This document shows, piece by piece, positions 2,376 through 64,000 of a DNA stretch of 64,000 nt; the stretch's first letter is position 1; the number at the start of each line of letters is the position of its first letter. The stretch spans positions 2,114-66,113 of the forward strand of contig DCVI01000150.1 in assembly GCA_002327315.1 (NCBI GenBank), in the 5' to 3' direction. This DNA comes from Syntrophaceae bacterium UBA2192 (lineage in GTDB: Bacteria; Desulfobacterota; Syntrophia; Syntrophales; UBA2192). The position numbers and the translations under genes are program-made. Under the pieces are notes generated by a model. It was not told where the DNA came from, did no database searches, and saw only the letters and a list, made by a program, of their open reading frames with translations.

Positions 2376-2680
2376 GACTCCCCTCCTGAAAAGCCCTTTT
2401 GTTCGCGCCTGAGCGGTTGTGCAGGTAGCGGTGACGGGAAAAAGGCATCCGGGAAGCGATGAGGGGATCCGCGGCGGGGTGCCGAAGACAGCCCCCGGGC
2501 CCGGTACTCCGGAACCGGAGGGTGCTCGGCTCGCCTGGCAGCCCTGCAACCCTATCCCGCGCAAGCGGGACGTAGGCCGGTGGCTTTGCGCCCCATCCTT
2601 TCGGATGGTTTGCCCTTTTCAGGCTCGTCAATCCCTATATCGGCAGGTCAGCGGAAAACTTTAGCGGGATGTCTCCTGCA

Positions 2681-22170: not shown

Positions 22171-22182
22171 CGACTATACGTC

Positions 22183-22389
22183 TCACGTCCCGCCGTACCC
22201 CACCGTCACCTTCCCCGCCTCGACGATGACGGGGACGGCGCGCCTGCCGCCGGAGAGCTTCAGCATCTCGGGAAGTCTCGCCGCATCCTTTTTCACGTCC
22301 ACATACTCCGCCTTGTCGCCATAGGCCGACCTGGCCTTGTCCGTGTAAGGTCAGCCGACCTTGCCGTAGATGATCAACTTGTCTGCCAT
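22183..22389 (-). CDS. glutaredoxin-like selenoprotein candidate (UPYT in place of CPYC), Sec codon at 22351-22353
   Basis: GGAGGG RBS. Translation: MADKLIIYGKVG-U-PYTDKARSAYGDKAEYVDVKKDAARLPEMLKLSGGRRAVPVIVEAGKVTVGYGGT. The UGA falls exactly where the Grx CxxC first Cys sits. The frame stays open for 55 more codons and carries the Grx VPVI motif. Confidence 0.7.
22323..22337 (-). promoter_or_regulatory. candidate SECIS hairpin
   Basis: AGGCC-AGGUC-GGCCU begins 13 nt after the UGA. The loop contains GGU. Confidence 0.35.
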
Positions 22390-58248: not shown

Positions 58249-59871
58249 TCAGCCGACAATCTTCCTGACCTTCTCGACCAGTTCCGCGACGGTGAAGCAC
58301 TCGCCGTTGTATTTAAGGATCCGATGATTCACCTTCAAACCCAGTTCGCGCCTGAGCAACTGCGCGAACTGGCCTGTCGCATTGTTCTCGATGCATATCA
58401 AGCGCTTGCGGGAAAGCCCTCTCGCCATTTTCGGCGCCAGGGGGTAGACCTGGCCGAAATGCAGGGCCGCCACTGCGATCCTTTCGGCCTGGAGGGCCTC
58501 GACAGCCTCCTGGACAATGAGGTGGTTCGATCCCCACGAGATGAGAACCGTAGCGGCCTTTCGATCCCCGAAGCGGGAGGGCATGACGGCTTCCTGTTTG
58601 ATTCCTTCCATCTTCCGGAGCCGCTTTTCGACCATCCGGACCCTCAGATCGAGATCTTCCGTGATTTTCCCATCCTCGGTGTGCTCGTCGGAGTCGACCT
58701 CGACGCGTGCCTCCGAAAGGCCGGGGTAAGTCAGGGGCGAGACCCCGTCGGCCGTGATCGCATAGCGTTTGTATCCGGCCTCGAAGACGGGGTACTCCCG
58801 GCGAAGCATTTTTGTCGGGACCCGTCCATCCATGACCTGGACGGAGTCGGCGAGGTACTGGTCCGTCAGGATGAAGACGGGAACCTGCCATCGGTCGGCC
58901 AGATCAAAGCCCTTCCGCGCCAGTGCGATGGCCCCCTCGATGGATCCCGGGGCGAAGATCACCCTGGAAAACTCGCCGTGGCCCGCGTGAAGGACGAAAT
59001 TCAGGTCGGCCTGCTCGGTCCTGGTCGGAAGCCCCGTTGCCGGTCCCGGCCGCTGGGCGTCGATGATGACGATCGGCGTCTCCGTCATGCCGGCAAGCGA
59101 GACGGCCTCCGTCATGAGGGCAAATCCCCCGCCCGAGGTGGCCACCATGGAACGCAGCCCTGCGTACGAGGCGCCCAGGGCCATGTTCAGGGCCGCGATC
59201 TCGTCTTCGGCCTGCTCGAAATGCACGGGAATCTCCGCCGCAACGGTTGCGAAGTAATGCAGGATCGACGTGGCGGGCGTCATGGGGTAGCCGGCCATGA
59301 ACTGACAGCCGCCGAGAAGCGCCCCCAGGGCGAGGGCCTGGTTCCCGTCGAGTTTGCAGTGATCGCCCGCCTTCGGGGCTATGACCATGCGGCCCGCAAG
59401 CTCCCAGCGGGCGGCAAAATCCCGGCCCTTCGCCAGGGCGCTGCGAGCCGGTTCATCGGCGGCCGACTTCGTTTCTGCGGGGTCCGCACCGATGAACGCG
59501 AGGATGAGGCCGACGAGGATGGTGCTTGTGGCCGAAACATCCTGGAAAGAACCCTTTGCCTCCGCCTCGATCTGCCCCACCCGGTCGGCGCCGATGAAGA
59601 CGCCGCCCGTCCCCAAAGAGGGGCGGTGCCTTCGCTCCGTCTCGCCGTCGTCCATGGCGACGATCAAGTCCCAGGGTCTGCCGCTCAATGCATGAACGGG
59701 CTTGTCAGCCACACGGATCATGTGGAAGTTGTGGCCGCCCCGTATGCGCGACATGTAGTTCTTCGTGGCGAAGAAATGGTAGCCCATCTCGGAGAGAAGC
59801 TCCGAGAGCTCCATCTCGACGGAAAACATCCCCTGCCCGGCTTCCCCACCGATCAGTACATTGAATTCCAT
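58249..59871 (-). CDS. korA: 2-oxoacid:ferredoxin oxidoreductase alpha subunit with a fused N-terminal gamma domain
   Basis: Gamma-type N-terminus LIGGEAGQGM...RGGHN, then alpha GNQALALGALLGGCQFMAGYPMTP. Confidence 0.9.
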   Translation of the reverse strand: MEFNVLIGGEAGQGMFSVEMELSELLSEMGYHFFATKNYMSRIRGGHNFHMIRVADKPVHALSGRPWDLIVAMDDGETERRHRPSLGTGGVFIGADRVGQIEAEAKGSFQDVSATSTILVGLILAFIGADPAETKSAADEPARSALAKGRDFAARWELAGRMVIAPKAGDHCKLDGNQALALGALLGGCQFMAGYPMTPATSILHYFATVAAEIPVHFEQAEDEIAALNMALGASYAGLRSMVATSGGGFALMTEAVSLAGMTETPIVIIDAQRPGPATGLPTRTEQADLNFVLHAGHGEFSRVIFAPGSIEGAIALARKGFDLADRWQVPVFILTDQYLADSVQVMDGRVPTKMLRREYPVFEAGYKRYAITADGVSPLTYPGLSEARVEVDSDEHTEDGKITEDLDLRVRMVEKRLRKMEGIKQEAVMPSRFGDRKAATVLISWGSNHLIVQEAVEALQAERIAVAALHFGQVYPLAPKMARGLSRKRLICIENNATGQFAQLLRRELGLKVNHRILKYNGECFTVAELVEKVRKIVG

Positions 59872-59974
59872 GGTTTCCTCCCGCGGTCTTTCATGAACCT
59901 GCGATCGGTAATGTGTGCTGGGGTTTGCCGCCCCCGGAATGGGTCATTTACCGGTGGCGACGGGAACTCAGTCC

Positions 59975-60217
59975 TCAGGAAAGGCCCTCGCGCTCCATCT
60001 CGGCGATGAGGTCCAGGTAGGTCTTTGCAAGCAGGTCCTCGAGGATCTGGCTTTTCTTCCACGAAGGAAACCAGTCGATCTCGGATGCGTTGTCCGCCTC
60101 GATTTGTTCCCTGCTCTGCCAGAATTTTTCCTGGATGGCCGAGGCCTTCTCCTGGCCGAATCTTTCCTGGTACTGCATCAAGGCGTGGAGGAATCTTTCT
60201 CGAGTAGAGCCTTCCAT
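59975..60217 (-). CDS. hypothetical protein (80 aa)
   Basis: Acidic, helical ORF downstream of the selenoprotein pair. No motif recognised. Confidence 0.45.
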   Translation of the reverse strand: MEGSTRERFLHALMQYQERFGQEKASAIQEKFWQSREQIEADNASEIDWFPSWKKSQILEDLLAKTYLDLIAEMEREGLS

Positions 60218-60310
60218 GGGATGCCTGCCTGCAAGAAGAAGTTACGAAAGTGGAAAGAGGCACAGGGACGGAGGCCGTCTTTCGGCCCCCGCCCCGGCGA
60301 GTTGTGCGAA

Positions 60311-60619
60311 TTACTGCAGAATCTTCGGCGGCCCGGAGAGCGGAAACCCCGCCTTTTCGAGGGCATCGACGATCTTTTCGATACTGGTTACTTCGTCATC
60401 GAAGTGGATGATCGCCATGTGGGTGAACTCATTGACATCCGACTTTCCGGCCTTTGCAACGTTTGTGAGGGTCCAACTGACCCTGTCCCGGGTGAAGGGT
60501 CACTCGCAGTTCGGCAGCATGACCTGGATGATCCGCTCCTTGGCCATGGCGGTTGAGGCGCCGATCAGGATGACAAGCACAACCGTGAACAGCACCAGGA
60601 GAATCGATCTTGATCTCAT
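60311..60619 (-). CDS. exported HMA-like ferredoxin-fold selenoprotein candidate (C-E-U motif); Sec codon at 60500-60502; absent from the ORF track
   Basis: AAGGAGG RBS. MRSRSILLVLFTVVLVILIGASTAMA signal peptide. KERIIQVMLPNCE-U-PFTRDRVSWTLTNVAKAGKSDVNEFTHMAIIHFDDEVTSIEKIVDALEKAGFPLSG follows the HMA layout (metal-binding loop, ...V.fD....s.e.i..ai..aGf). Confidence 0.6.
60468..60484 (-). promoter_or_regulatory. candidate SECIS hairpin
   Basis: AGGGUC-AGUUG-GACCCU (6-bp stem) begins 15 nt after the UGA. Confidence 0.4.
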
Positions 60620-60682
60620 GGATGAACCTCCTTTTCAATTTGCATTATTTTAATCACTCCGGCGGCCAAAATCCACTCAAAT

Positions 60683-61222
60683 CTATTTGCCTCCGTTGAG
60701 GTCTTTCAGCACCCTGAGGATCTCTTCATAGTCGGGCGACCCGTCCCGCACGTAGCGGATGGTTGCCTTTTTGTCGATAATGACGGTTCGCCGCTCAAAG
60801 GGGAACCTACCCTCCTTCACGACTCCAAAGGAGCTTCCCAGGTAACCGGAGATGTTCGACAGCAGGGGAAAGGACAGTCTTAAATGTTTTTTCCAGTATT
60901 GGAGGGTCTGCACGTCGTCACGGCTGACGCCCACGACCTGGGCGTTGAGGGACCTGTAGGCTTCCAGGTTCGCCTGGTGTCCCTGCATCTCGCCCGTTCA
61001 GGTGGGGGTGTAGGCTGCCGGGAAGAATGTGACGATCAGGAAGGCCTTGTCGTAGTATTCCGGTCCGTAGTTGATCGCCCGGTCCTCCGTTGAGGAGAGG
61101 GTGAAATTGACGGTCTGCTTGCCGATCAGGGGATCCTGCTGACCGGCTGCCCGGATCGTCAGAGGGATCATCAGCAGCGCGACCAGAAGGAGAAGCCCAA
61201 CGGTAAATCGCCGAGTCATCAT
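60683..61222 (-). CDS. exported PrxQ/Bcp-type peroxiredoxin, selenoprotein candidate; Sec codon at 60998-61000
   Basis: AAGGAGG RBS. Signal peptide MMTRRFTVGLLLLVALLMIPLTIRA. FLIVTFFPAAYTPT-U-TGEMQGHQANLE matches F-[YF]-P-x3-T-P-x-C-T-x-E, with U at the peroxidatic Cys. Both track ORFs are in the same frame across the UGA. Confidence 0.75.
60964..60977 (-). promoter_or_regulatory. weak candidate SECIS hairpin
   Basis: CCAGG-CGAA-CCUGG lies 20 nt after the UGA. A wider AGGGAC...GUCCCU pairing is also possible. Confidence 0.25.
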
Positions 61223-61281
61223 GGGATACCTCCTTTGCGGGTTGATGGGACACAGTTGCGGAGTTGACGGGATGCCCGATA

Positions 61282-62571
61282 TCAGGTCGGGGGCTTTGCC
61301 TTTCGCACCACGGCCTCGAAAAAAGCCGAGCGAAGAGGATCGATGGCCATGAGCGCCCGGGCCGGCGGAGTTTTTTCCAGGGCGGCCGCAATGCGTCCGA
61401 AGGCGCGCCAGCCCCACTGCTCGTGGCCTTCGAAAACGAGGTTGGCGAGCTTGCCGCGCTCGATGGCCATGGCGATCACCTTGTCGAAGGTCGTCTCCGG
61501 CGTGAACACCCTCTTGGGCCGGGGCTTCATCCGGATCGCCCCGGTCTTGCATCCCGTGTAGCACACGCCGCAGCCGAGGCAGAACTCCTCCTGGTGACGG
61601 GCCTTCTTCGCGTTCTTTTTCCCGCCCTCGGCCTCAACGGGGACCATGTCGATCAGCTCGACGGGGCAGAGTTTGGCGCACTTGCCGCAGCCCTTGCATT
61701 TTGTCTCGTCGATCTCGACGGTCCAGTTCGACGTGACGATGGCGTTGCGCTGACCCATGACCCGGATGGCCTTCATCATCTCGCAGCAGCAACCGCAGCA
61801 GTTACAGATGTAGGCGGCGTTTTTCCGGACATTGTCGCCCGTCTGGGCAAGCCCCAGCTCCTTGCACTGCTCGAGGATCTTGAGCGCCTCCGCCGTCGAA
61901 ACGGGCCGGGCAAAACCGTTTTTCACGAGGATCTCCGCCCCCATGTTGAGGGCAATGCAGTTCTCCATGGGCCTGTCGCATGCCTTCCCCAGGTGGGAGG
62001 CCTTGTGCCGGCAGGCGCAAAGCGACACGGAGGCCGCCGAGGCCGATTCGATGAGCCGGGTGGCCCGCTCCCAGTCGAGGATCTCCGTGTGGTCCCCCTC
62101 CGGGAGGGCCTCCTCGCGCACGAGCGATCGGCCGATCTGTGTGTCGGCCCCGAAGACGGACCGGGCGAAGCGGTCATCGCCGTGCATGTAGGCATCGAAG
62201 AGTCGCGCCAGCTCCTTCAGGGGGAGCTTGTCGTCGGCGCGCATGAAGGTGTACTCGAAGAAGCCGATGACGACGGGTGCCAGCGACACGTAACGGCGCC
62301 CGCCCCTGCCGATGTCGATGACGAGCCCCCGATGGGCCATCTCGGTGATCCAGCCATCGAGGGCCGCGGGCTCCATGCCCAGCTTCTTGGCGAGCCGTCC
62401 CACGGTGGTAAAGCGCGTCGGAATCTGCCGGGCGATATTGGCATCCTCAGGCGAGAAGAGAATTTTCAGGATCTCCATGAAATGGGGCGAGTCGGGCGCA
62501 CCGGTCACGTTGCGGTCGAGGCGCTGCTGGAGGAGGCGGTATTCGCGGTCAGGGTTAACGATGTGTCCCAT
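61282..62571 (-). CDS. Fe-S protein with a CCGCCC motif and two 4Fe-4S ferredoxin motifs
   Basis: ICNCCGCCCEMM, CKGCGKCAKLCP and CLGCGVCYTGC. Confidence 0.75.
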   Translation of the reverse strand: MGHIVNPDREYRLLQQRLDRNVTGAPDSPHFMEILKILFSPEDANIARQIPTRFTTVGRLAKKLGMEPAALDGWITEMAHRGLVIDIGRGGRRYVSLAPVVIGFFEYTFMRADDKLPLKELARLFDAYMHGDDRFARSVFGADTQIGRSLVREEALPEGDHTEILDWERATRLIESASAASVSLCACRHKASHLGKACDRPMENCIALNMGAEILVKNGFARPVSTAEALKILEQCKELGLAQTGDNVRKNAAYICNCCGCCCEMMKAIRVMGQRNAIVTSNWTVEIDETKCKGCGKCAKLCPVELIDMVPVEAEGGKKNAKKARHQEEFCLGCGVCYTGCKTGAIRMKPRPKRVFTPETTFDKVIAMAIERGKLANLVFEGHEQWGWRAFGRIAAALEKTPPARALMAIDPLRSAFFEAVVRKAKPPT

Positions 62572-62731
62572 AGGAAATACTTATCATCCTGGGCTGTTGA
62601 CCGGGGGCGCGTCCCGTCAGGGGGCGCAATCATGTCCTGTTTAGGACCTTGCCGGGAAGCACCGCAGGTGCTTCAAAATAAACCCATCTGCAGTTTCTTG
62701 CAACCTTTCCTTAATCTCCCTCTCCCTTGAG

Positions 62732-64000
62732 AGACTGTGTCACAACAGCCAGGAGGGAACCGGGGGTCGGTTGTTTAAGCGTTCTTTGACAACAAAATAT
62801 CCGTAACGTCTATCCGCGAACTGCCCGGCGGGCAGGTAAGGATGGTTCAGGGCCCTTCGGCGAGTGCCGTTGAGTCTTATGCCGGGGTGAAGCAGGGTCT
62901 TCCGAGGACCCGGAGCTTCTCGATGAGCCCGTTGACCCCCAGGATCCCGATCAGGCGCGCCACATTGAAGCAACTGGCCAGCACCGAGATCTCGGCTCGC
63001 GCCCCCTCGAGTTCCCGCAGCAGGAAGGCATCGACCTTGAGGTTGCGTTTGATGTGCCCGAAGGGATGCTCCGCCCGGGTTTTTCGCCTCTCGTAGACGG
63101 CCTGGGAGGCGGCCTCCTCGTACTGGGCCTCCAGCTTGAGCTTGACCTCTTCGTTGGACAGCCGGATGATCTTGCGCCCCTTGCGCGCCTTGGTGCAGGT
63201 TCCGTAGTGCCGGCACCTCTGGCAGATCGTCCCGTTGGCGATCACGTAGTGCCGCTTGCCCGTGCGCTTCTCCGTCGTTTCGTAGCGAAGCCGATGACCT
63301 TCGGGGCAGAGGTAGACATCGAGCTCGGGGTCGTAGGTAAAATGACTCTTGCTGAAGGGCCCCTCGGGCTCCTTCAGGGCCTGCCGCTGCGAGGGGACGA
63401 TCACCCGGATGCCCTGGTTGTCGATCTTCTCGAGTTCCGTCGTGTCGGCATAGCCGGCATCGGCGCAGGCCGTCTCGCAGGGGGTCCGCAGTAGGGCATT
63501 GGCCGCTTCGATCTGCCGGGCGAACTGGTTGACATCGCTGACCTGCTCGACCGCGTCGGCCTGCAGCAGAAGCCCCTGCTTGTCATCCACCACCAACTGT
63601 ACGTTGTAGGCCGCGTGGCTGCCCTGGACGCTCTTCATGAGGGCACAGTCCGGATCGGTCTGGTTGACGTACCTGCGGGTGCTTCCCTCGAAGCCCCGCA
63701 GGGCCCCCTGGACCCGGTCCTTGAGCGTGCGGCTCCGGGTCAGCTCCTTCTGCATCCGCACCCAGGAGCCCTGCTGCTGCTCCCGGCGGTCGATGGCCTC
63801 GCAGTCCTTCAGCAACTGCTCGATGCGCCGATCCGGATCGGCCAGCTTCTTCTCGTACCAGGCCCGCTCATGGCTGCGGTACCGCGAGGCGTTGGCCCGG
63901 ATCTTCGTGCCGTCCACAAACAGCACGTTGCCCGCGATCAGGTCCAGCCGGATGCAGAGCCGGGCGCAGTGCCGAAGCACCTGCTTGAGGGCCGGCTTGT
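62732..64000 (-). mobile_element. IS1182/IS5-type insertion sequence (one end only; it continues past the window)
   Basis: A family-B palindrome is truncated at 62731/62732 (TCCCTCTCCCTTGAG|agactgtg versus the intact CCCTTGAGGGGAGAGGG). The transposase gene follows. Confidence 0.6.
62877..64000 (-). CDS. IS1182-family DDE transposase (N-terminus outside the window)
   Basis: FVDGTKIRANAS, DAGYADT and the Cys-rich YLCPEGH...CQRC...C segment, plus C-terminal RKTRAEHPFGHIK. The frame is still open at 64000. Confidence 0.85.
   Translation of the reverse strand, partial: KPALKQVLRHCARLCIRLDLIAGNVLFVDGTKIRANASRYRSHERAWYEKKLADPDRRIEQLLKDCEAIDRREQQQGSWVRMQKELTRSRTLKDRVQGALRGFEGSTRRYVNQTDPDCALMKSVQGSHAAYNVQLVVDDKQGLLLQADAVEQVSDVNQFARQIEAANALLRTPCETACADAGYADTTELEKIDNQGIRVIVPSQRQALKEPEGPFSKSHFTYDPELDVYLCPEGHRLRYETTEKRTGKRHYVIANGTICQRCRHYGTCTKARKGRKIIRLSNEEVKLKLEAQYEEAASQAVYERRKTRAEHPFGHIKRNLKVDAFLLRELEGARAEISVLASCFNVARLIGILGVNGLIEKLRVLGRPCFTPA

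What the first reader, a model, noticed from the sequence alone, without database searches (positions are those of the whole stretch)
60311..60619. Hidden gene: exported HMA-like ferredoxin-fold protein with a C-E-U motif, invisible in the six-frame ORF track
Both halves of this gene are under 60 aa, so no track ORF covers it. With UGA read as Sec it encodes 102 aa: a signal peptide ending TAMA, then IIQVMLPNCE-U-PFTRDRV...IIHFDDEVTSIEKIVDALEKAGFPLSG. This follows the beta-alpha-beta-beta-alpha-beta heavy-metal-associated layout. The metal-binding loop is C-x-U rather than CxxC. The cleanest hairpin of the four candidates (AGGGUC-AGUUG-GACCCU) starts 15 nt after the UGA. The gene lies 63 bp downstream of the Sec-peroxiredoxin on the same strand. 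This suggests a periplasmic selenoprotein pair, either a redox partner or a metal/selenium carrier.
Basis: partly seen in the sequence, partly recalled or inferred. Interest (0 to 1): 0.68.

Follow-up and report, generated by a model that had tools for sequence, protein, structure and literature searches.

The report
Exported MerP-like selenoprotein with Cys-x-Sec loop
This is a real but unannotated gene for a small exported protein that resembles the bacterial mercury-binding protein MerP and places the rare amino acid selenocysteine in its metal-binding loop; it belongs to a small, uncatalogued family seen so far only in environmental anaerobes.

Summary
It encodes 102 aa with one in-frame UGA (60502-60500) in a P-N-C-E-U-P loop. 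Thirty-three related loci keep the UGA and the frame. dN/dS after the UGA is 0.20. TGA is a normal stop elsewhere in the window, and a curated selenoprotein (UXX-star family 1) lies in the same window. A 6-7 bp hairpin 15 nt after the UGA, with an invariant G in its loop, shows strong covariation across 12 lineage representatives (97.6% paired; 5 of 7 pairs changed on both sides). It is absent from all five Cys homologues tested. The AlphaFold model is beta-alpha-beta-beta-alpha-beta and best matches MerP (TM 0.84), but no curated HMA, MerP or selenoprotein model reaches its threshold. The wider family (about 80 clusters) alternates CxC/CxU and CxxC/CxxU. The Sec-peroxiredoxin neighbour is facultative (11 of 30 loci). 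However, thioredoxin-fold genes sit immediately upstream of family members in three independent lineages. Identity as an exported MerP-like selenoprotein is about 0.9 likely. Function is inferred: soft-metal binding by the Cys/Sec pair (about 0.5) or a periplasmic redox relay (about 0.25). I class it as a new variant of a known kind, of moderate interest.

The parts
60311..60619 (-). CDS of the exported MerP-like selenoprotein (102 codons plus TAA stop at 60313-60311; Sec at codon 40)
   Evidence: Translation. The frame and the UGA are conserved in 33 related loci. dN/dS is 0.20 downstream of the UGA.
60627..60634 (-). Shine-Dalgarno sequence AAAGGAGG, 7 nt upstream of the ATG
   Evidence: Read from the sequence. 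AAGGAGG is conserved in every orthologous locus aligned.
60542..60619 (-). Signal peptide, codons 1-26 (MRSRS / ILLVLFTVVLVILIG / ASTAMA, predicted cleavage before KER)
   Evidence: Sequence features. AlphaFold gives an N-terminal helix at residues 4-22, followed by the domain. Family members all carry signal peptides, and one (P0014) has a lipobox, LLSC. dN/dS is higher here (0.56) than in the mature part. No SignalP run was available.
60500..60508 (-). Reactive loop codons: Cys38 (TGC 60508-60506), Glu39, Sec40 (TGA 60502-60500)
   Evidence: TGA is invariant in 27 of 27 full-length orthologues. The column aligns with the second Cys of the CxC and CxxC homologues.
60468..60484 (-). Bacterial SECIS-like hairpin: 5' stem AGGGUC (60484-60479), loop AGUUG (60478-60474), 3' stem GACCCU (60473-60468); 15 nt after the UGA, 21 nt from the UGA to the loop
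   Evidence: Covariation: 97.6% of cells paired against 29-49% in slid controls, 5 of 7 pairs changed on both sides, 0 of 500 shuffles reach the observed score. The hairpin is present in all 7 Sec representatives and absent in all 5 Cys homologues, and is also seen in L047 and L049. Synonymous diversity is halved over codons 41-52.
60647..60680 (-). Conserved 5' element (TGWGTGGATTTTG ... GATTAAAAT), a candidate own promoter for the gene
   Evidence: Conserved in loci with and without the upstream Prx (alignment). The consensus promoter scan did not call it, so its function is inferred only.
60683..61222 (-). Facultative upstream neighbour: exported AhpC/TSA peroxiredoxin with Sec at the peroxidatic position (UGA 61000-60998) and no Cys residue
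   Evidence: Pfam AhpC-TSA, E = 2e-22. The UGA is conserved in 9 other loci; the protein has no Cys in 8 of those 9 loci, and none in the window copy. Present in 11 of 30 informative loci.
59975..60217 (-). Conserved downstream neighbour hyp80 (80 aa, no signal peptide, no family match). It co-occurs with the gene but is not shown to belong to the same function.
   Evidence: Downstream of the HMA gene in nearly all loci of the clade that extend far enough; absent in L025 and L018. No Pfam or NCBIfam hit.

Best explanation
A genuine selenoprotein gene. The mRNA has its own strong ribosome-binding site. Translation reaches UGA-40, and a SECIS-type hairpin 15 nt downstream (loop AGUUG) recruits SelB/Sec-tRNA so that selenocysteine is inserted instead of terminating. 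The 102-aa precursor is exported through the Sec pathway and cleaved after A-M-A. This leaves a mature periplasmic protein of about 76 aa with a MerP-like HMA (beta-alpha-beta-beta-alpha-beta) fold.

Its reactive centre is the pair Cys38/Sec40, in the loop between strand 1 and helix 1 where HMA proteins bind metal.

Most likely function (inferred, not shown): the thiolate/selenolate pair binds a thiophilic metal or metalloid ion (Hg(II), Cu(I) or similar) in the periplasm, as MerP and CopZ do with two cysteines. The selenolate would give tighter and faster binding at low pH and low redox potential. The pair can also close to a selenenylsulfide, so its redox state probably has to be maintained. 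That would explain the recurrent thioredoxin-fold neighbours.

Shown: the gene, the recoding signal, conservation, fold, export signal, and Cys/Sec alternation in the family.
Inferred: Sec insertion in vivo, cleavage site, metal binding, identity of the metal, and any coupling to the Prx.
For: Gene and recoding:
- Frame and UGA are conserved in 33 related loci.
- dN/dS is 0.20 after the UGA, and third-position variation dominates (57 variable sites against 26 and 20).
- Pfam-verified genes in the window end in TGA, so the genetic code is standard.
- A curated selenoprotein (NF041114, 103 bits against a cutoff of 72) and a Sec-Prx lie in the same window.

SECIS:
- The register is the same (15-nt spacer, 6-7 bp stem, 5-nt loop with G at position 2) in lineages whose stems differ: AGGGUC, AGAGUC, AGGAUA, AGUAUA, AGGGUA, ACGAUA.
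- 97.6% of cells are paired and 5 of 7 pairs are changed on both sides.
- No hairpin is found in the 5 Cys homologues.
- It matches the published criterion of a stem-loop immediately downstream of the UGA with a small G-containing apical loop (PMC1088965).

Fold and homology:
- AlphaFold pLDDT is about 85 over the domain.
- The best PDB matches are MerP 1osd (TM 0.84, rmsd 1.6 A, 31% identity) and 1afi, followed by CopZ, Atx1 and ATPase HMA domains.
- The sequence hits MerP (PDB E = 2.8e-5; TIGR02052 E = 2e-8).

Cys/Sec alternation at the same column: CxC/CxU and CxxC/CxxU.

Metal hints in the family:
- CC-motif relatives carry His-rich tails (P0028).
- A CxC relative sits next to arsR-arsD-arsA.
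- Other HMA-type selenoproteins are already curated as metal-binding (NF041115, NF045683).
Against: - No mer, cop or other metal-resistance genes are adjacent here or in most relatives.
- The canonical GMTCxxC motif is lost. The Met and Thr are replaced, and the ligand spacing is one residue shorter.
- The alignment register to MerP is ambiguous. Ungapped alignments put Sec40 on MerP Cys14 and Cys38 on Met12.
- Pfam HMA and MerP scores are below their curated cutoffs.
- Selenocysteine is far more often a redox catalyst than a metal ligand.
- Thioredoxin-fold neighbours in three lineages fit a redox role at least as well.
- There is no expression, 75Se-labelling or binding data.
- selA, selB, selC and selD were not seen in the window (no tRNA in the window).
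Confidence: 0.55

Rival explanations
1. Periplasmic redox relay. The Cys38-x-Sec40 pair cycles between the dithiol/selenol form and a selenenylsulfide, and acts as the resolving or reducing partner of the Cys-less 1-Sec peroxiredoxin encoded 63 nt upstream, or of other thioredoxin-fold envelope proteins. On this view the HMA scaffold serves as a redox carrier rather than a metal binder.
For: - The adjacent exported Prx has the P-x-x-x-T-x-x-U active site and no Cys at all, so it needs an external reductant.
- Prx and the HMA gene travel together into a different genomic context in L025 and L018.
- A distant C-V-U family member (P0020) lies directly downstream of a different exported AhpC/TSA/Thioredoxin_8 selenoprotein with a U-x-x-C motif.
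- The closest Cys form (P0013, CxC) is translationally coupled to a PF00085 thioredoxin with WCPYS.
- From general knowledge: CxC motifs are typical of redox-active sites (Mia40 CPC, Erv2 CGC, CCS CXC), and most selenoproteins are redox enzymes.
Against: - 19 of 30 informative loci of the same clade lack the Prx.
- The gene keeps its own 5' element.
- Most other family members are stand-alone.
- To my knowledge no HMA-fold protein is known to act as a thiol-disulfide oxidoreductase.
- No recycling system (DsbD/CcdA-type) is seen nearby.
- Whether Prx-lacking genomes encode the Prx elsewhere could not be checked.
Confidence: 0.25
2. Carrier of a chalcogen species. The Cys/Sec pair holds sulfane sulfur, selenide or polysulfide, forming a persulfide or selenotrisulfide, for periplasmic delivery or detoxification rather than binding a metal ion.
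For: Only circumstantial. The protein is exported, it has a closely spaced nucleophile pair, and it comes from a sulfide-rich anaerobic habitat. Nothing addresses this directly.
Against: There are no neighbouring sulfur or selenium metabolism genes, and no homology to known sulfur or selenium carriers (rhodanese, DsrE, YedF). The best homology is to metal binders.
Confidence: 0.07
3. Not a selenoprotein. Either the UGA is a true stop (a pseudogene or two unrelated short ORFs), or it is read as Trp or Gly under an alternative genetic code, as some JGI gene calls (P0001, P0002) imply.
For: Automated callers produced 39-59-aa truncated products (P0003-5, P0009, P0011, P0012) or W read-throughs (P0001, P0002, P0010, P0014 and others). 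No tRNA-Sec or sel genes were seen in the 64-kb window.
Against: - The UGA is invariant, and both halves stay in frame under purifying selection in 27 orthologues.
- There is no start codon or ribosome-binding site for the second half.
- The hairpin is specific to UGA-containing members.
- Cys occupies the same column in homologues.
- Verified genes in the window stop at TGA, which excludes code 4 or 25.
- A code-4 call produces an obvious artefact that fuses the gene to hyp80 (P0094).
- Two other UGA-containing genes with curated or classical selenoprotein signatures are in the window.
Confidence: 0.03

Closest known systems
MerP, periplasmic Hg(II)-binding protein of mer operons (NCBIfam TIGR02052; PDB 1osd, 1afi)
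   Same: It has a signal peptide plus a single HMA domain of about 72 aa. MerP is the best structural match (TM 0.84, rmsd 1.6 A, 31% identity) and the best sequence match. Both share the ...TFDD.KT... core and a reactive pair in the loop between strand 1 and helix 1.
   Different: It scores 34.5 bits against a cutoff of 92.55. GMTCxxC is replaced by LPNC-E-U, with one residue fewer between the ligands and Sec as the second ligand. It has a family-specific C-terminus, G-x-P-x-[FYW]-[LIV]-[KNQ]. There is no merR, merT or merA context.
NF041115 'UxxU metal-binding (seleno)protein' and NF045683 'MerT/CopZ fusion-like heavy metal transport selenoprotein' (curated HMA-type selenoproteins)
   Same: These also carry an HMA-type domain with selenocysteine in the metal-binding loop. 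They show that Sec can replace Cys in this motif.
   Different: The matches are only faint (14.5 and 13.9 bits against cutoffs of 95 and 375). Those families have a UxxU or fusion architecture, and NF041115 is a 74-position model with no signal peptide region. The protein here is exported, has one Sec, and has C-x-U spacing.
CopZ/Atx1 copper chaperones and N-terminal HMA domains of P1B-type ATPases (including the UxxC 'cation-transporting ATPase' selenoprotein form listed in PMC13188914)
   Same: The fold is the same (ranks 3-50), as is the logic of a two-ligand soft-metal site.
   Different: Those proteins are cytoplasmic, use CxxC, and deliver metal to a partner ATPase. No ATPase or partner is encoded nearby here.
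TlpA-ScoI/CoxB and ScsB-TlpA-PprX envelope systems (thioredoxin-fold reductases that keep Cys-based periplasmic copper sites reduced, or that feed a periplasmic peroxiredoxin); recalled from the literature, not tested here
   Same: They show a recurrent pairing of an exported thioredoxin-fold protein with an exported protein that carries a closely spaced Cys (or Sec) pair.
   Different: The components are not homologous to those systems. Here the thioredoxin-fold partner is in one case a peroxidase (Prx) rather than a reductase. The coupling is inferred from gene order only.

Membership tests
Bacterial selenoprotein gene (SelB/SECIS-dependent UGA recoding) | An in-frame UGA conserved among orthologues, with the coding frame maintained on both sides | tested here: met
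   33 loci keep the UGA and the frame. TGA is invariant in 27 of 27 orthologues. dN/dS is 0.26 before the UGA and 0.20 after it.
Bacterial selenoprotein gene (SelB/SECIS-dependent UGA recoding) | A stem-loop immediately downstream of the UGA with a small apical loop containing G (criterion from PMC1088965) | tested here: met
   The hairpin lies at 60484-60468 with loop AGUUG. It shows covariation (97.6% paired, 5 of 7 pairs changed on both sides). It is specific to Sec forms. Folding energy alone is not significant.
Bacterial selenoprotein gene (SelB/SECIS-dependent UGA recoding) | Homologues with Cys aligned to the Sec position | tested here: met
   CxC forms: P0013, P0015, P0024, P0027, P0037, P0041, P0051, P0075 and about 14 CTCG clusters. 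CxxC forms: about 35 CRPC clusters, set against CSSU and CFSU forms.
Bacterial selenoprotein gene (SelB/SECIS-dependent UGA recoding) | Sec-decoding machinery (selA, selB, selC, selD) in the same genome | tested here: inconclusive
   No tRNA-Sec is present in the 64-kb window, and the sel genes were not searched for specifically. Indirect support: two other UGA-containing genes in the window, including a curated UXX-star selenoprotein and a Sec-Prx. Syntrophus and Syntrophobacter are known to be selenoprotein-rich (PMC1794560).
Bacterial selenoprotein gene (SelB/SECIS-dependent UGA recoding) | Selenium actually incorporated into the polypeptide | not testable with these tools
   Requires 75Se labelling or mass spectrometry.
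HMA domain (Pfam PF00403) | The beta-alpha-beta-beta-alpha-beta ferredoxin-like fold | tested here: met
   The AlphaFold elements are E28-34, H42-53, E59-63, E68-74 and H80-89, followed by a short final strand at residues 99-100. The top 36 PDB matches are all HMA domains.
HMA domain (Pfam PF00403) | Score at or above Pfam's gathering threshold | tested here: not met
   16.6 bits against 24.8, and only residues 50-92 match. Several relatives do carry a precomputed PF00403 hit.
HMA domain (Pfam PF00403) | The G-M-x-C-x-x-C metal-binding motif | tested here: not met
   The loop is L-P-N-C-E-U-P, which has C-x-U spacing and lacks the Met and Thr. The distant relatives L033 and L034 have C-S-S-U.
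MerP (NCBIfam TIGR02052 equivalog) | A signal peptide plus a single HMA domain of about 90 aa in total | tested here: met
   The match covers residues 15-94 of the protein and positions 10-88 of the 92-position profile. Signal-peptide features come from the sequence.
MerP (NCBIfam TIGR02052 equivalog) | Score at or above the curated cutoff (92.55 bits) | tested here: not met
   34.5 bits. Other family members score 40-61 bits.
MerP (NCBIfam TIGR02052 equivalog) | Location in a mer operon (merR, merT, merA) | tested here: not met
   The neighbours are a 4Fe-4S protein, a Sec-Prx, hyp80 and a 2-oxoacid:ferredoxin oxidoreductase. No mer genes are present in any related locus inspected.
MerP (NCBIfam TIGR02052 equivalog) | Binds Hg(II) through the two loop ligands | not testable with these tools
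   Needs biochemistry.
NF041115 UxxU metal-binding (seleno)protein and NF045683 MerT/CopZ fusion selenoprotein | Score at or above the curated cutoff, and the UxxU or fusion architecture | tested here: not met
   14.5 bits against 95, and 13.9 bits against 375. The protein has a single Sec, a C-x-U loop and no MerT domain.

The most novel reading that the evidence does not exclude
The HMA scaffold has been recruited as a periplasmic selenol/thiol redox carrier. On this reading the Cys38-x-Sec40 protein is the dedicated resolving or reducing partner of the Cys-less 1-Sec peroxiredoxin next door. In other lineages it would partner UxxC or WCxxS thioredoxin-fold proteins. Together these would form a largely selenium-based peroxide-reduction relay in the envelope of strict anaerobes. 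This would be the first HMA-fold oxidoreductase. A still more speculative variant is that the protein captures Hg(II) in the periplasm for the Hg-methylating Syntrophales.
Probability: 0.2. Interest if true: 0.75.

Novelty: new variant of a known kind. Interest (0 to 1): 0.5.

Why it matters
- **Annotation.** The gene is invisible to standard annotation. Gene callers truncate it at the UGA, split it, or read the UGA as Trp under the wrong genetic code. It is absent from the curated selenoprotein resources I could check: no NCBIfam model reaches threshold, and the 2026 review table has no PF00403 or MerP-type entry.
- **Catalogue of metal-site selenoproteins.** It adds an exported, MerP-like member with an unusual C-x-U spacing to the short list of selenoproteins in which Sec sits in a metal-binding motif.
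- **A natural comparison set.** The family provides CxC/CxU and CxxC/CxxU series for asking what selenium contributes at a soft-metal or redox site.
- **A testable hypothesis.** The repeated adjacency to exported thioredoxin-fold proteins, including a peroxiredoxin with no cysteine, suggests how envelope selenoproteins in anaerobes are recycled.
- **SECIS model.** The hairpin alignment is a compact SECIS set with good covariation, usable for building a search model.

Tried and rejected
1. Plus-strand reading of 60311-60619: it gives no sensible protein. The gene is on the minus strand.
2. Thermodynamic significance of the hairpin: not significant (z = +0.87), so I relied on comparative evidence instead.
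3. RNAalifold's preferred structure (UGACCC pairing upstream with GGGUCA): it has no compensatory changes and breaks in L003, L017, L033 and L034. Rejected in favour of the downstream hairpin.
4. Rfam scan at gathering threshold: nothing at this locus, only a c-di-GMP-I riboswitch elsewhere in the window. The tRNA scan found no tRNA-Sec in the window.
5. The 'MerP' selenoprotein listed in the 2008 GOS survey: it is a 33-residue read fragment (APAGTUCQSG) unrelated to this family. It is not a precedent.
6. Other literature checks: searches for HMA, MerP or CopZ selenoproteins, plus checks of the deep-Sep paper and the 2022 and 2026 reviews, found no description of this family.
7. Mer or cop operon context: none found.
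8. Sigma-70 and terminator scan of 59800-62800: no promoter called, and the terminator count was not above background. A sigma-54 reading of the conserved 5' element was considered by eye and dropped, because the spacer is not conserved.
I used P0001 and P0002 (W at the Sec position) instead.
10. P0046 contig: no DNA was available.
11. In one search the row for the window's own Prx used a wrong offset and should be ignored.
12. P0008 (a 722-aa repeat protein) is a spurious low-complexity match.
Full report
**1. What is in the sequence**

The finding's coordinates are right, but the gene is on the minus strand; the plus-strand translation is meaningless.

- Read from 60619 down to 60311, the frame gives MRSRSILLVLFTVVLVILIGASTAMAKERIIQVMLPNCE-[TGA]-PFTRDRVSWTLTNVAKAGKSDVNEFTHMAIIHFDDEVTSIEKIVDALEKAGFPLSGPPKILQ-[TAA].
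- The ATG is preceded at 7 nt by AAAGGAGG (60634-60627).
- The in-frame TGA is codon 40 (60502-60500), two codons after Cys38 (60508-60506).
- The mechanical ORF list contains only a 39-aa and a 35-aa fragment here. That explains why the gene is invisible in an ORF track with a 60-aa minimum.
- The upstream gene (61222-60683, minus strand) ends 63 nt before the ATG. It is an AhpC/TSA peroxiredoxin (Pfam E = 2e-22) with its own in-frame UGA at 61000-60998, in the Prx signature P-A-A-Y-T-P-T-U.

**2. Is the UGA read through?**

- A scan of one genome per species found six loci, all MAGs labelled Syntrophales, Syntrophaceae, Syntrophobacterales or 'delta proteobacterium'.
- A metagenome scan found 28 more loci.
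- Every locus that covers the site has TGA at the same codon, with both halves in frame.
- Over 27 full-length orthologues (26 distinct sequences), the TGA is invariant.
- dN/dS is 0.26 for mature codons 27-39 and 0.20 for codons 41-102.
- Variable sites after the UGA fall mainly at third positions (57, against 26 and 20). The downstream half is therefore translated in this frame.
- TGA is an ordinary stop in this genome. Pfam-verified genes such as the 2-oxoacid:ferredoxin oxidoreductase alpha subunit and the 429-aa Fe-S protein end in TGA. A general UGA reassignment is excluded.
- Database proteins that show W at this position (P0001, P0002, P0010, P0014 and others) are gene-calling artefacts. 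I checked the DNA for P0014, P0016, P0017, P0020 and P0055, and for the P0010 type. Each 'W' is TGA.
- One such call even fuses the gene to its downstream neighbour through a second TGA (P0094).
- Sec decoding in this organism has independent support from the same window: a gene at 22389-22174 (minus strand) scores 103 bits against the curated model 'UXX-star selenoprotein family 1' (cutoff 72). It has both expected UGAs, G-U-P-Y-T and a C-terminal U-D-V-stop.

**3. The recoding signal**

On energy alone the hairpin is unremarkable (z = +0.87). RNAalifold even prefers an alternative pairing of UGACCC with GGGUCA, but that alternative shows no compensatory change and is broken in four lineages. 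The comparative evidence for the downstream hairpin is strong:

- Within the clade, the third stem pair changes from G-C to A-U in L003 and L017, through two synonymous third-position substitutions. L012 shows a G-U intermediate.
- Across verified Sec lineages the stem sequence changes almost completely: AGGGUC/GACCCU, AGGAUA/UGUCCU, AGUAUA/UAUACU, AGGGUA/UAUCCU and ACGAUA/UGUCGU.
- The geometry stays the same: a 15-nt spacer (12 nt in the CxxU form L042, where the Sec codon lies one codon later), a 6-7 bp stem and a 5-nt loop. The second loop base is G in all 12 representatives.
- On those 12 representatives, 97.6% of cells pair, against 29-49% when the 3' partner is slid by 1-3 nt. Five of seven pairs show changes on both sides, and none of 500 shuffles reaches the observed covariation.
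- As a control, five Cys-containing homologues have no stem longer than 4 bp at the equivalent place. All seven Sec representatives tested have 6-8 bp.
- Synonymous diversity over codons 41-52 is less than half that of the rest of the gene (0.23 against 0.52). This is expected for an RNA structure embedded in coding sequence.
- The element fits the published description of bacterial SECIS elements: a stem-loop immediately downstream of the UGA with a small G-containing apical loop (PMC1088965). From memory, the distance of 21 nt from the UGA to the loop lies inside the range used by bSECISearch; I did not verify that number.

**4. The protein**

- The N-terminus has a basic n-region, a 15-residue hydrophobic core and an A-M-A motif before K-E-R. 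These are the features of a signal peptidase I substrate. No signal-peptide predictor was available.
- All family members have such leaders, and one (P0014) has a lipobox instead.
- AlphaFold (alignment of P0001 and P0002, W at the Sec site) gives a leader helix followed by strand 28-34, loop 35-41, helix 42-53, strands 59-63 and 68-74, helix 80-89 and a short final strand at residues 99-100. pLDDT is about 85 over the domain.
- Foldseek against the PDB returns MerP first (1osd: TM 0.84 normalised to the target, rmsd 1.6 A, 31% identity; then 1afi). It then lists the general HMA set: Ccc2a, HMA7, ATP7B, CopZ and Atx1.
- By sequence the best hits are again MerP (PDB E = 2.8e-5; NCBIfam TIGR02052 E = 2e-8, covering residues 15-94).
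- All scores are below curated thresholds: 34.5 against 92.55 bits for MerP, and 16.6 against 24.8 bits for Pfam HMA.
- The curated HMA-type selenoprotein models NF041115 (UxxU) and NF045683 (MerT/CopZ fusion) are only faintly matched.
- The protein therefore works on the MerP/HMA scaffold but is not a member of any curated family.

**5. The loop and the family**

- A full HMMER profile search of 1.84 billion representatives gave only 76 hits at E <= 0.001.
- A family-only profile against 5.8 billion clusters gave 78 hits at E <= 1e-6.
- All come from metagenomes or MAGs. They carry generic names ('copper chaperone CopZ', 'mercuric ion binding protein', 'hypothetical'), and none is flagged as a selenoprotein.
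- Members are about 100 aa, carry a signal peptide, share the ...TFDD.KT... core, and end in G-x-P-x-[FYW]-[LIV]-[KNQ].
- The first Cys (Cys38) is invariant in the family alignment. The second ligand varies in both position and chemistry:
  - C-x-C: P0013 ACDCP, P0015 ECECQ, and about 14 'CTCG' clusters.
  - C-x-U: this clade; also P0014, P0016, P0020 and P0055 (all verified), and probably P0019, P0050, P0089 and P0134.
  - C-x-x-C: about 35 'CRPC' clusters.
  - C-x-x-U: L033, L034 and P0017 (verified); about 9 'CSSW' or 'CFSW' clusters (inferred).
  - (for this classification)
- Sec always replaces the second Cys of the pair.
- Many 39-63-aa database entries are the N- or C-terminal halves of Sec forms.
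- The register relative to MerP is ambiguous. Ungapped HMMER and MAFFT alignments place Sec40 on MerP Cys14 and Cys38 on the Met of GMTC. The motif match C-S-S-U-P = C-S-A-C-P in the CxxU relatives would instead place Sec on Cys17. Either way, the pair lies in the HMA metal-binding loop at the start of helix 1.

**6. Genomic context**

- In this clade the common arrangement is Fe-S protein (429 aa, two 4Fe-4S motifs), then the HMA gene, then hyp80, then 2-oxoacid:ferredoxin oxidoreductase.
- The Sec-Prx is inserted between the Fe-S gene and the HMA gene in 9 loci, including this window. It is absent in 19 loci.
- In L018 and L025 the Prx-HMA pair occurs without the Fe-S gene and without hyp80. 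In L025 it lies next to a Cys-loop-channel-like protein and a two-component system.
- A conserved motif (TGWGTGGATTTTG ... GATTAAAAT, about 60680-60647) precedes the HMA gene whether or not the Prx is present. In Prx-containing loci it starts right after the Prx stop codon. The HMA gene therefore probably has its own promoter, although the consensus scan did not call one.
- The 'selenoprotein pair' is thus facultative. However, the Prx has no cysteine: none in the window copy and in 8 of 9 other loci. It must therefore be recycled by an external partner.
- Two unrelated lineages of the HMA family also have a thioredoxin-fold gene immediately upstream on the same strand:
  - In L047 and L048 it is an exported AhpC/TSA/Thioredoxin_8 protein with its own UGA in S-T-U-A-V-C. 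It has no BLASTP similarity to the window's Prx.
  - In L043 it is a PF00085 thioredoxin with WCPYS, whose ORF overlaps the start of the CxC gene.
- The other contexts inspected show no such neighbour and no metal-resistance operon. These are GltB-like plus TRAP transporter; a sigma-54 regulator with divergent arsR-arsD-arsA; a porin-like gene; a formate-dehydrogenase-like cluster; and housekeeping genes.
- Three thioredoxin-fold neighbours in about nine independent contexts is more than I would expect by chance. The sample is small, and this is not a formal test.

**7. Mechanism**

Shown by the evidence:
- a translated gene;
- a SECIS-type element that is specific to the UGA-containing members;
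- an export signal;
- a MerP-like HMA fold;
- Cys/Sec alternation at the second position of a closely spaced pair in the metal-binding loop.

Inferred:
- Selenocysteine is inserted by SelB at UGA-40.
- The precursor is exported and cleaved.
- The mature protein of about 76 aa uses the Cys38 thiolate and the Sec40 selenolate as its reactive centre.

I consider soft-metal binding the most likely function (about 0.5). Every characterised bacterial protein with this fold that I know of binds metal at this loop. MerP is the closest relative. Other HMA-type selenoproteins are curated as metal binders. Near relatives with CC motifs carry His-rich tails.

The main rival (about 0.25) is a redox-relay role, in which the pair cycles through a selenenylsulfide and serves the Cys-less Sec-Prx or other thioredoxin-fold proteins. 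It is favoured by the neighbour pattern and by the loss of the GMTCxxC spacing. It is disfavoured by the many stand-alone members and by the lack of any precedent for an HMA-fold oxidoreductase.

The two are not exclusive. Thioredoxin-fold partners may simply keep a metal site reduced, as TlpA does for ScoI (from the literature, not tested here).

Minor rivals are a chalcogen carrier (about 0.07) and 'not a selenoprotein' (about 0.03).

**8. Novelty and verdict**

- Selenocysteine in an HMA-type motif is known: NF041115 UxxU, the MerT/CopZ fusion, and the UxxC P-type ATPase.
- The searchable literature and NCBIfam contain no exported MerP-like C-x-U or C-x-x-U family.
- The 'MerP selenoprotein' of the 2008 GOS survey is an unrelated 33-residue fragment.
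- I therefore rate this a new variant of a known kind. It is a solid, previously uncatalogued selenoprotein family with an unusual ligand spacing and an intriguing, testable link to envelope thioredoxin-fold proteins.
- Interest is 0.5. The most novel reading not excluded by the evidence (an HMA-fold selenol redox carrier feeding a Cys-less Sec-peroxiredoxin) has a probability of about 0.2 and would merit about 0.75.

Noticed in passing
window 22174-22389 (minus strand); UGAs at 22353-22351 and 22185-22183: A small glutaredoxin-like double selenoprotein, MADKLIIYGKVG-U-PYTDKA...GYGGT-U-D-V-stop. It scores 103 bits against the curated NCBIfam model NF041114 'UXX-star selenoprotein family 1' (cutoff 72). 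It is invisible in a standard ORF track. It serves as independent evidence that this organism decodes UGA as Sec.
   Followed up: yes
window 60683-61222 (minus strand); UGA at 61000-60998: An exported AhpC/TSA peroxiredoxin with Sec at the peroxidatic position (P-A-A-Y-T-P-T-U) and no cysteine anywhere, so there is no resolving residue. Its UGA is conserved in 9 other loci. It is a presence/absence insertion between the Fe-S gene and the HMA gene (11 of 30 loci).
   Followed up: partly
L047 153-773 and L048 511-1086: An exported AhpC/TSA/Thioredoxin_8/Redoxin-type protein with an in-frame UGA in ...EFSNST-U-AVCQKN... (a U-x-x-C motif). It lies directly upstream of a distant C-V-U member of the HMA family. 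It has no BLASTP similarity to the window's Prx.
   Followed up: partly
window about 60647-60680 (minus strand): A conserved motif, TGWGTGGATTTTG-N(~10)-GATTAAAAT, about 30-65 nt upstream of the HMA start codon. It is present in loci with and without the Prx. It may be a promoter (TGGATT, 17 nt, TAAAAT), but the consensus scan did not call it.
   Followed up: partly
window 61282-62571 (minus strand): A 429-aa protein with two 4Fe-4S ferredoxin motifs (residues 284-348) and an unusual Cys-rich stretch, ...YICNCCGCCCEMM.... It is always upstream of the HMA gene in this clade. Only generic ferredoxin-domain matches were found, including a sub-threshold match to the HgcB ferredoxin model.
   Followed up: no
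window 59975-60217 (minus strand): An 80-aa protein with no signal peptide and no Pfam or NCBIfam match. It is conserved directly downstream of the HMA gene in nearly all loci of the clade.
   Followed up: no
window 2534-2624 (minus strand): A c-di-GMP-I riboswitch aptamer (Rfam RF01051, 74 bits against a gathering score of 35).
   Followed up: no
window 62877-63980 (minus strand): A DDE transposase (Pfam DDE_Tnp_1_6 and DDE_Tnp_1) just upstream of the Fe-S gene, near the end of the window.
   Followed up: no
proteins P0001, P0002, P0010, P0014, P0016, P0017, P0020, P0055, P0094 (public gene calls): Public metagenome gene calls translate the Sec UGA as Trp, apparently by using genetic code 4 or 25. 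In P0094 the call reads through a genuine TGA stop and fuses the HMA gene to hyp80. Other calls truncate at the UGA (39-59 aa) or start after it. This is a systematic annotation artefact for this family.
   Followed up: yes
L025 33-1235: A 400-aa protein with a neurotransmitter-gated ion-channel ligand-binding domain (Pfam Neur_chan_LBD, E = 6e-13) and C-terminal transmembrane helices, so a prokaryotic Cys-loop-receptor-like protein. It lies directly upstream of the relocated Prx-HMA pair.
   Followed up: no
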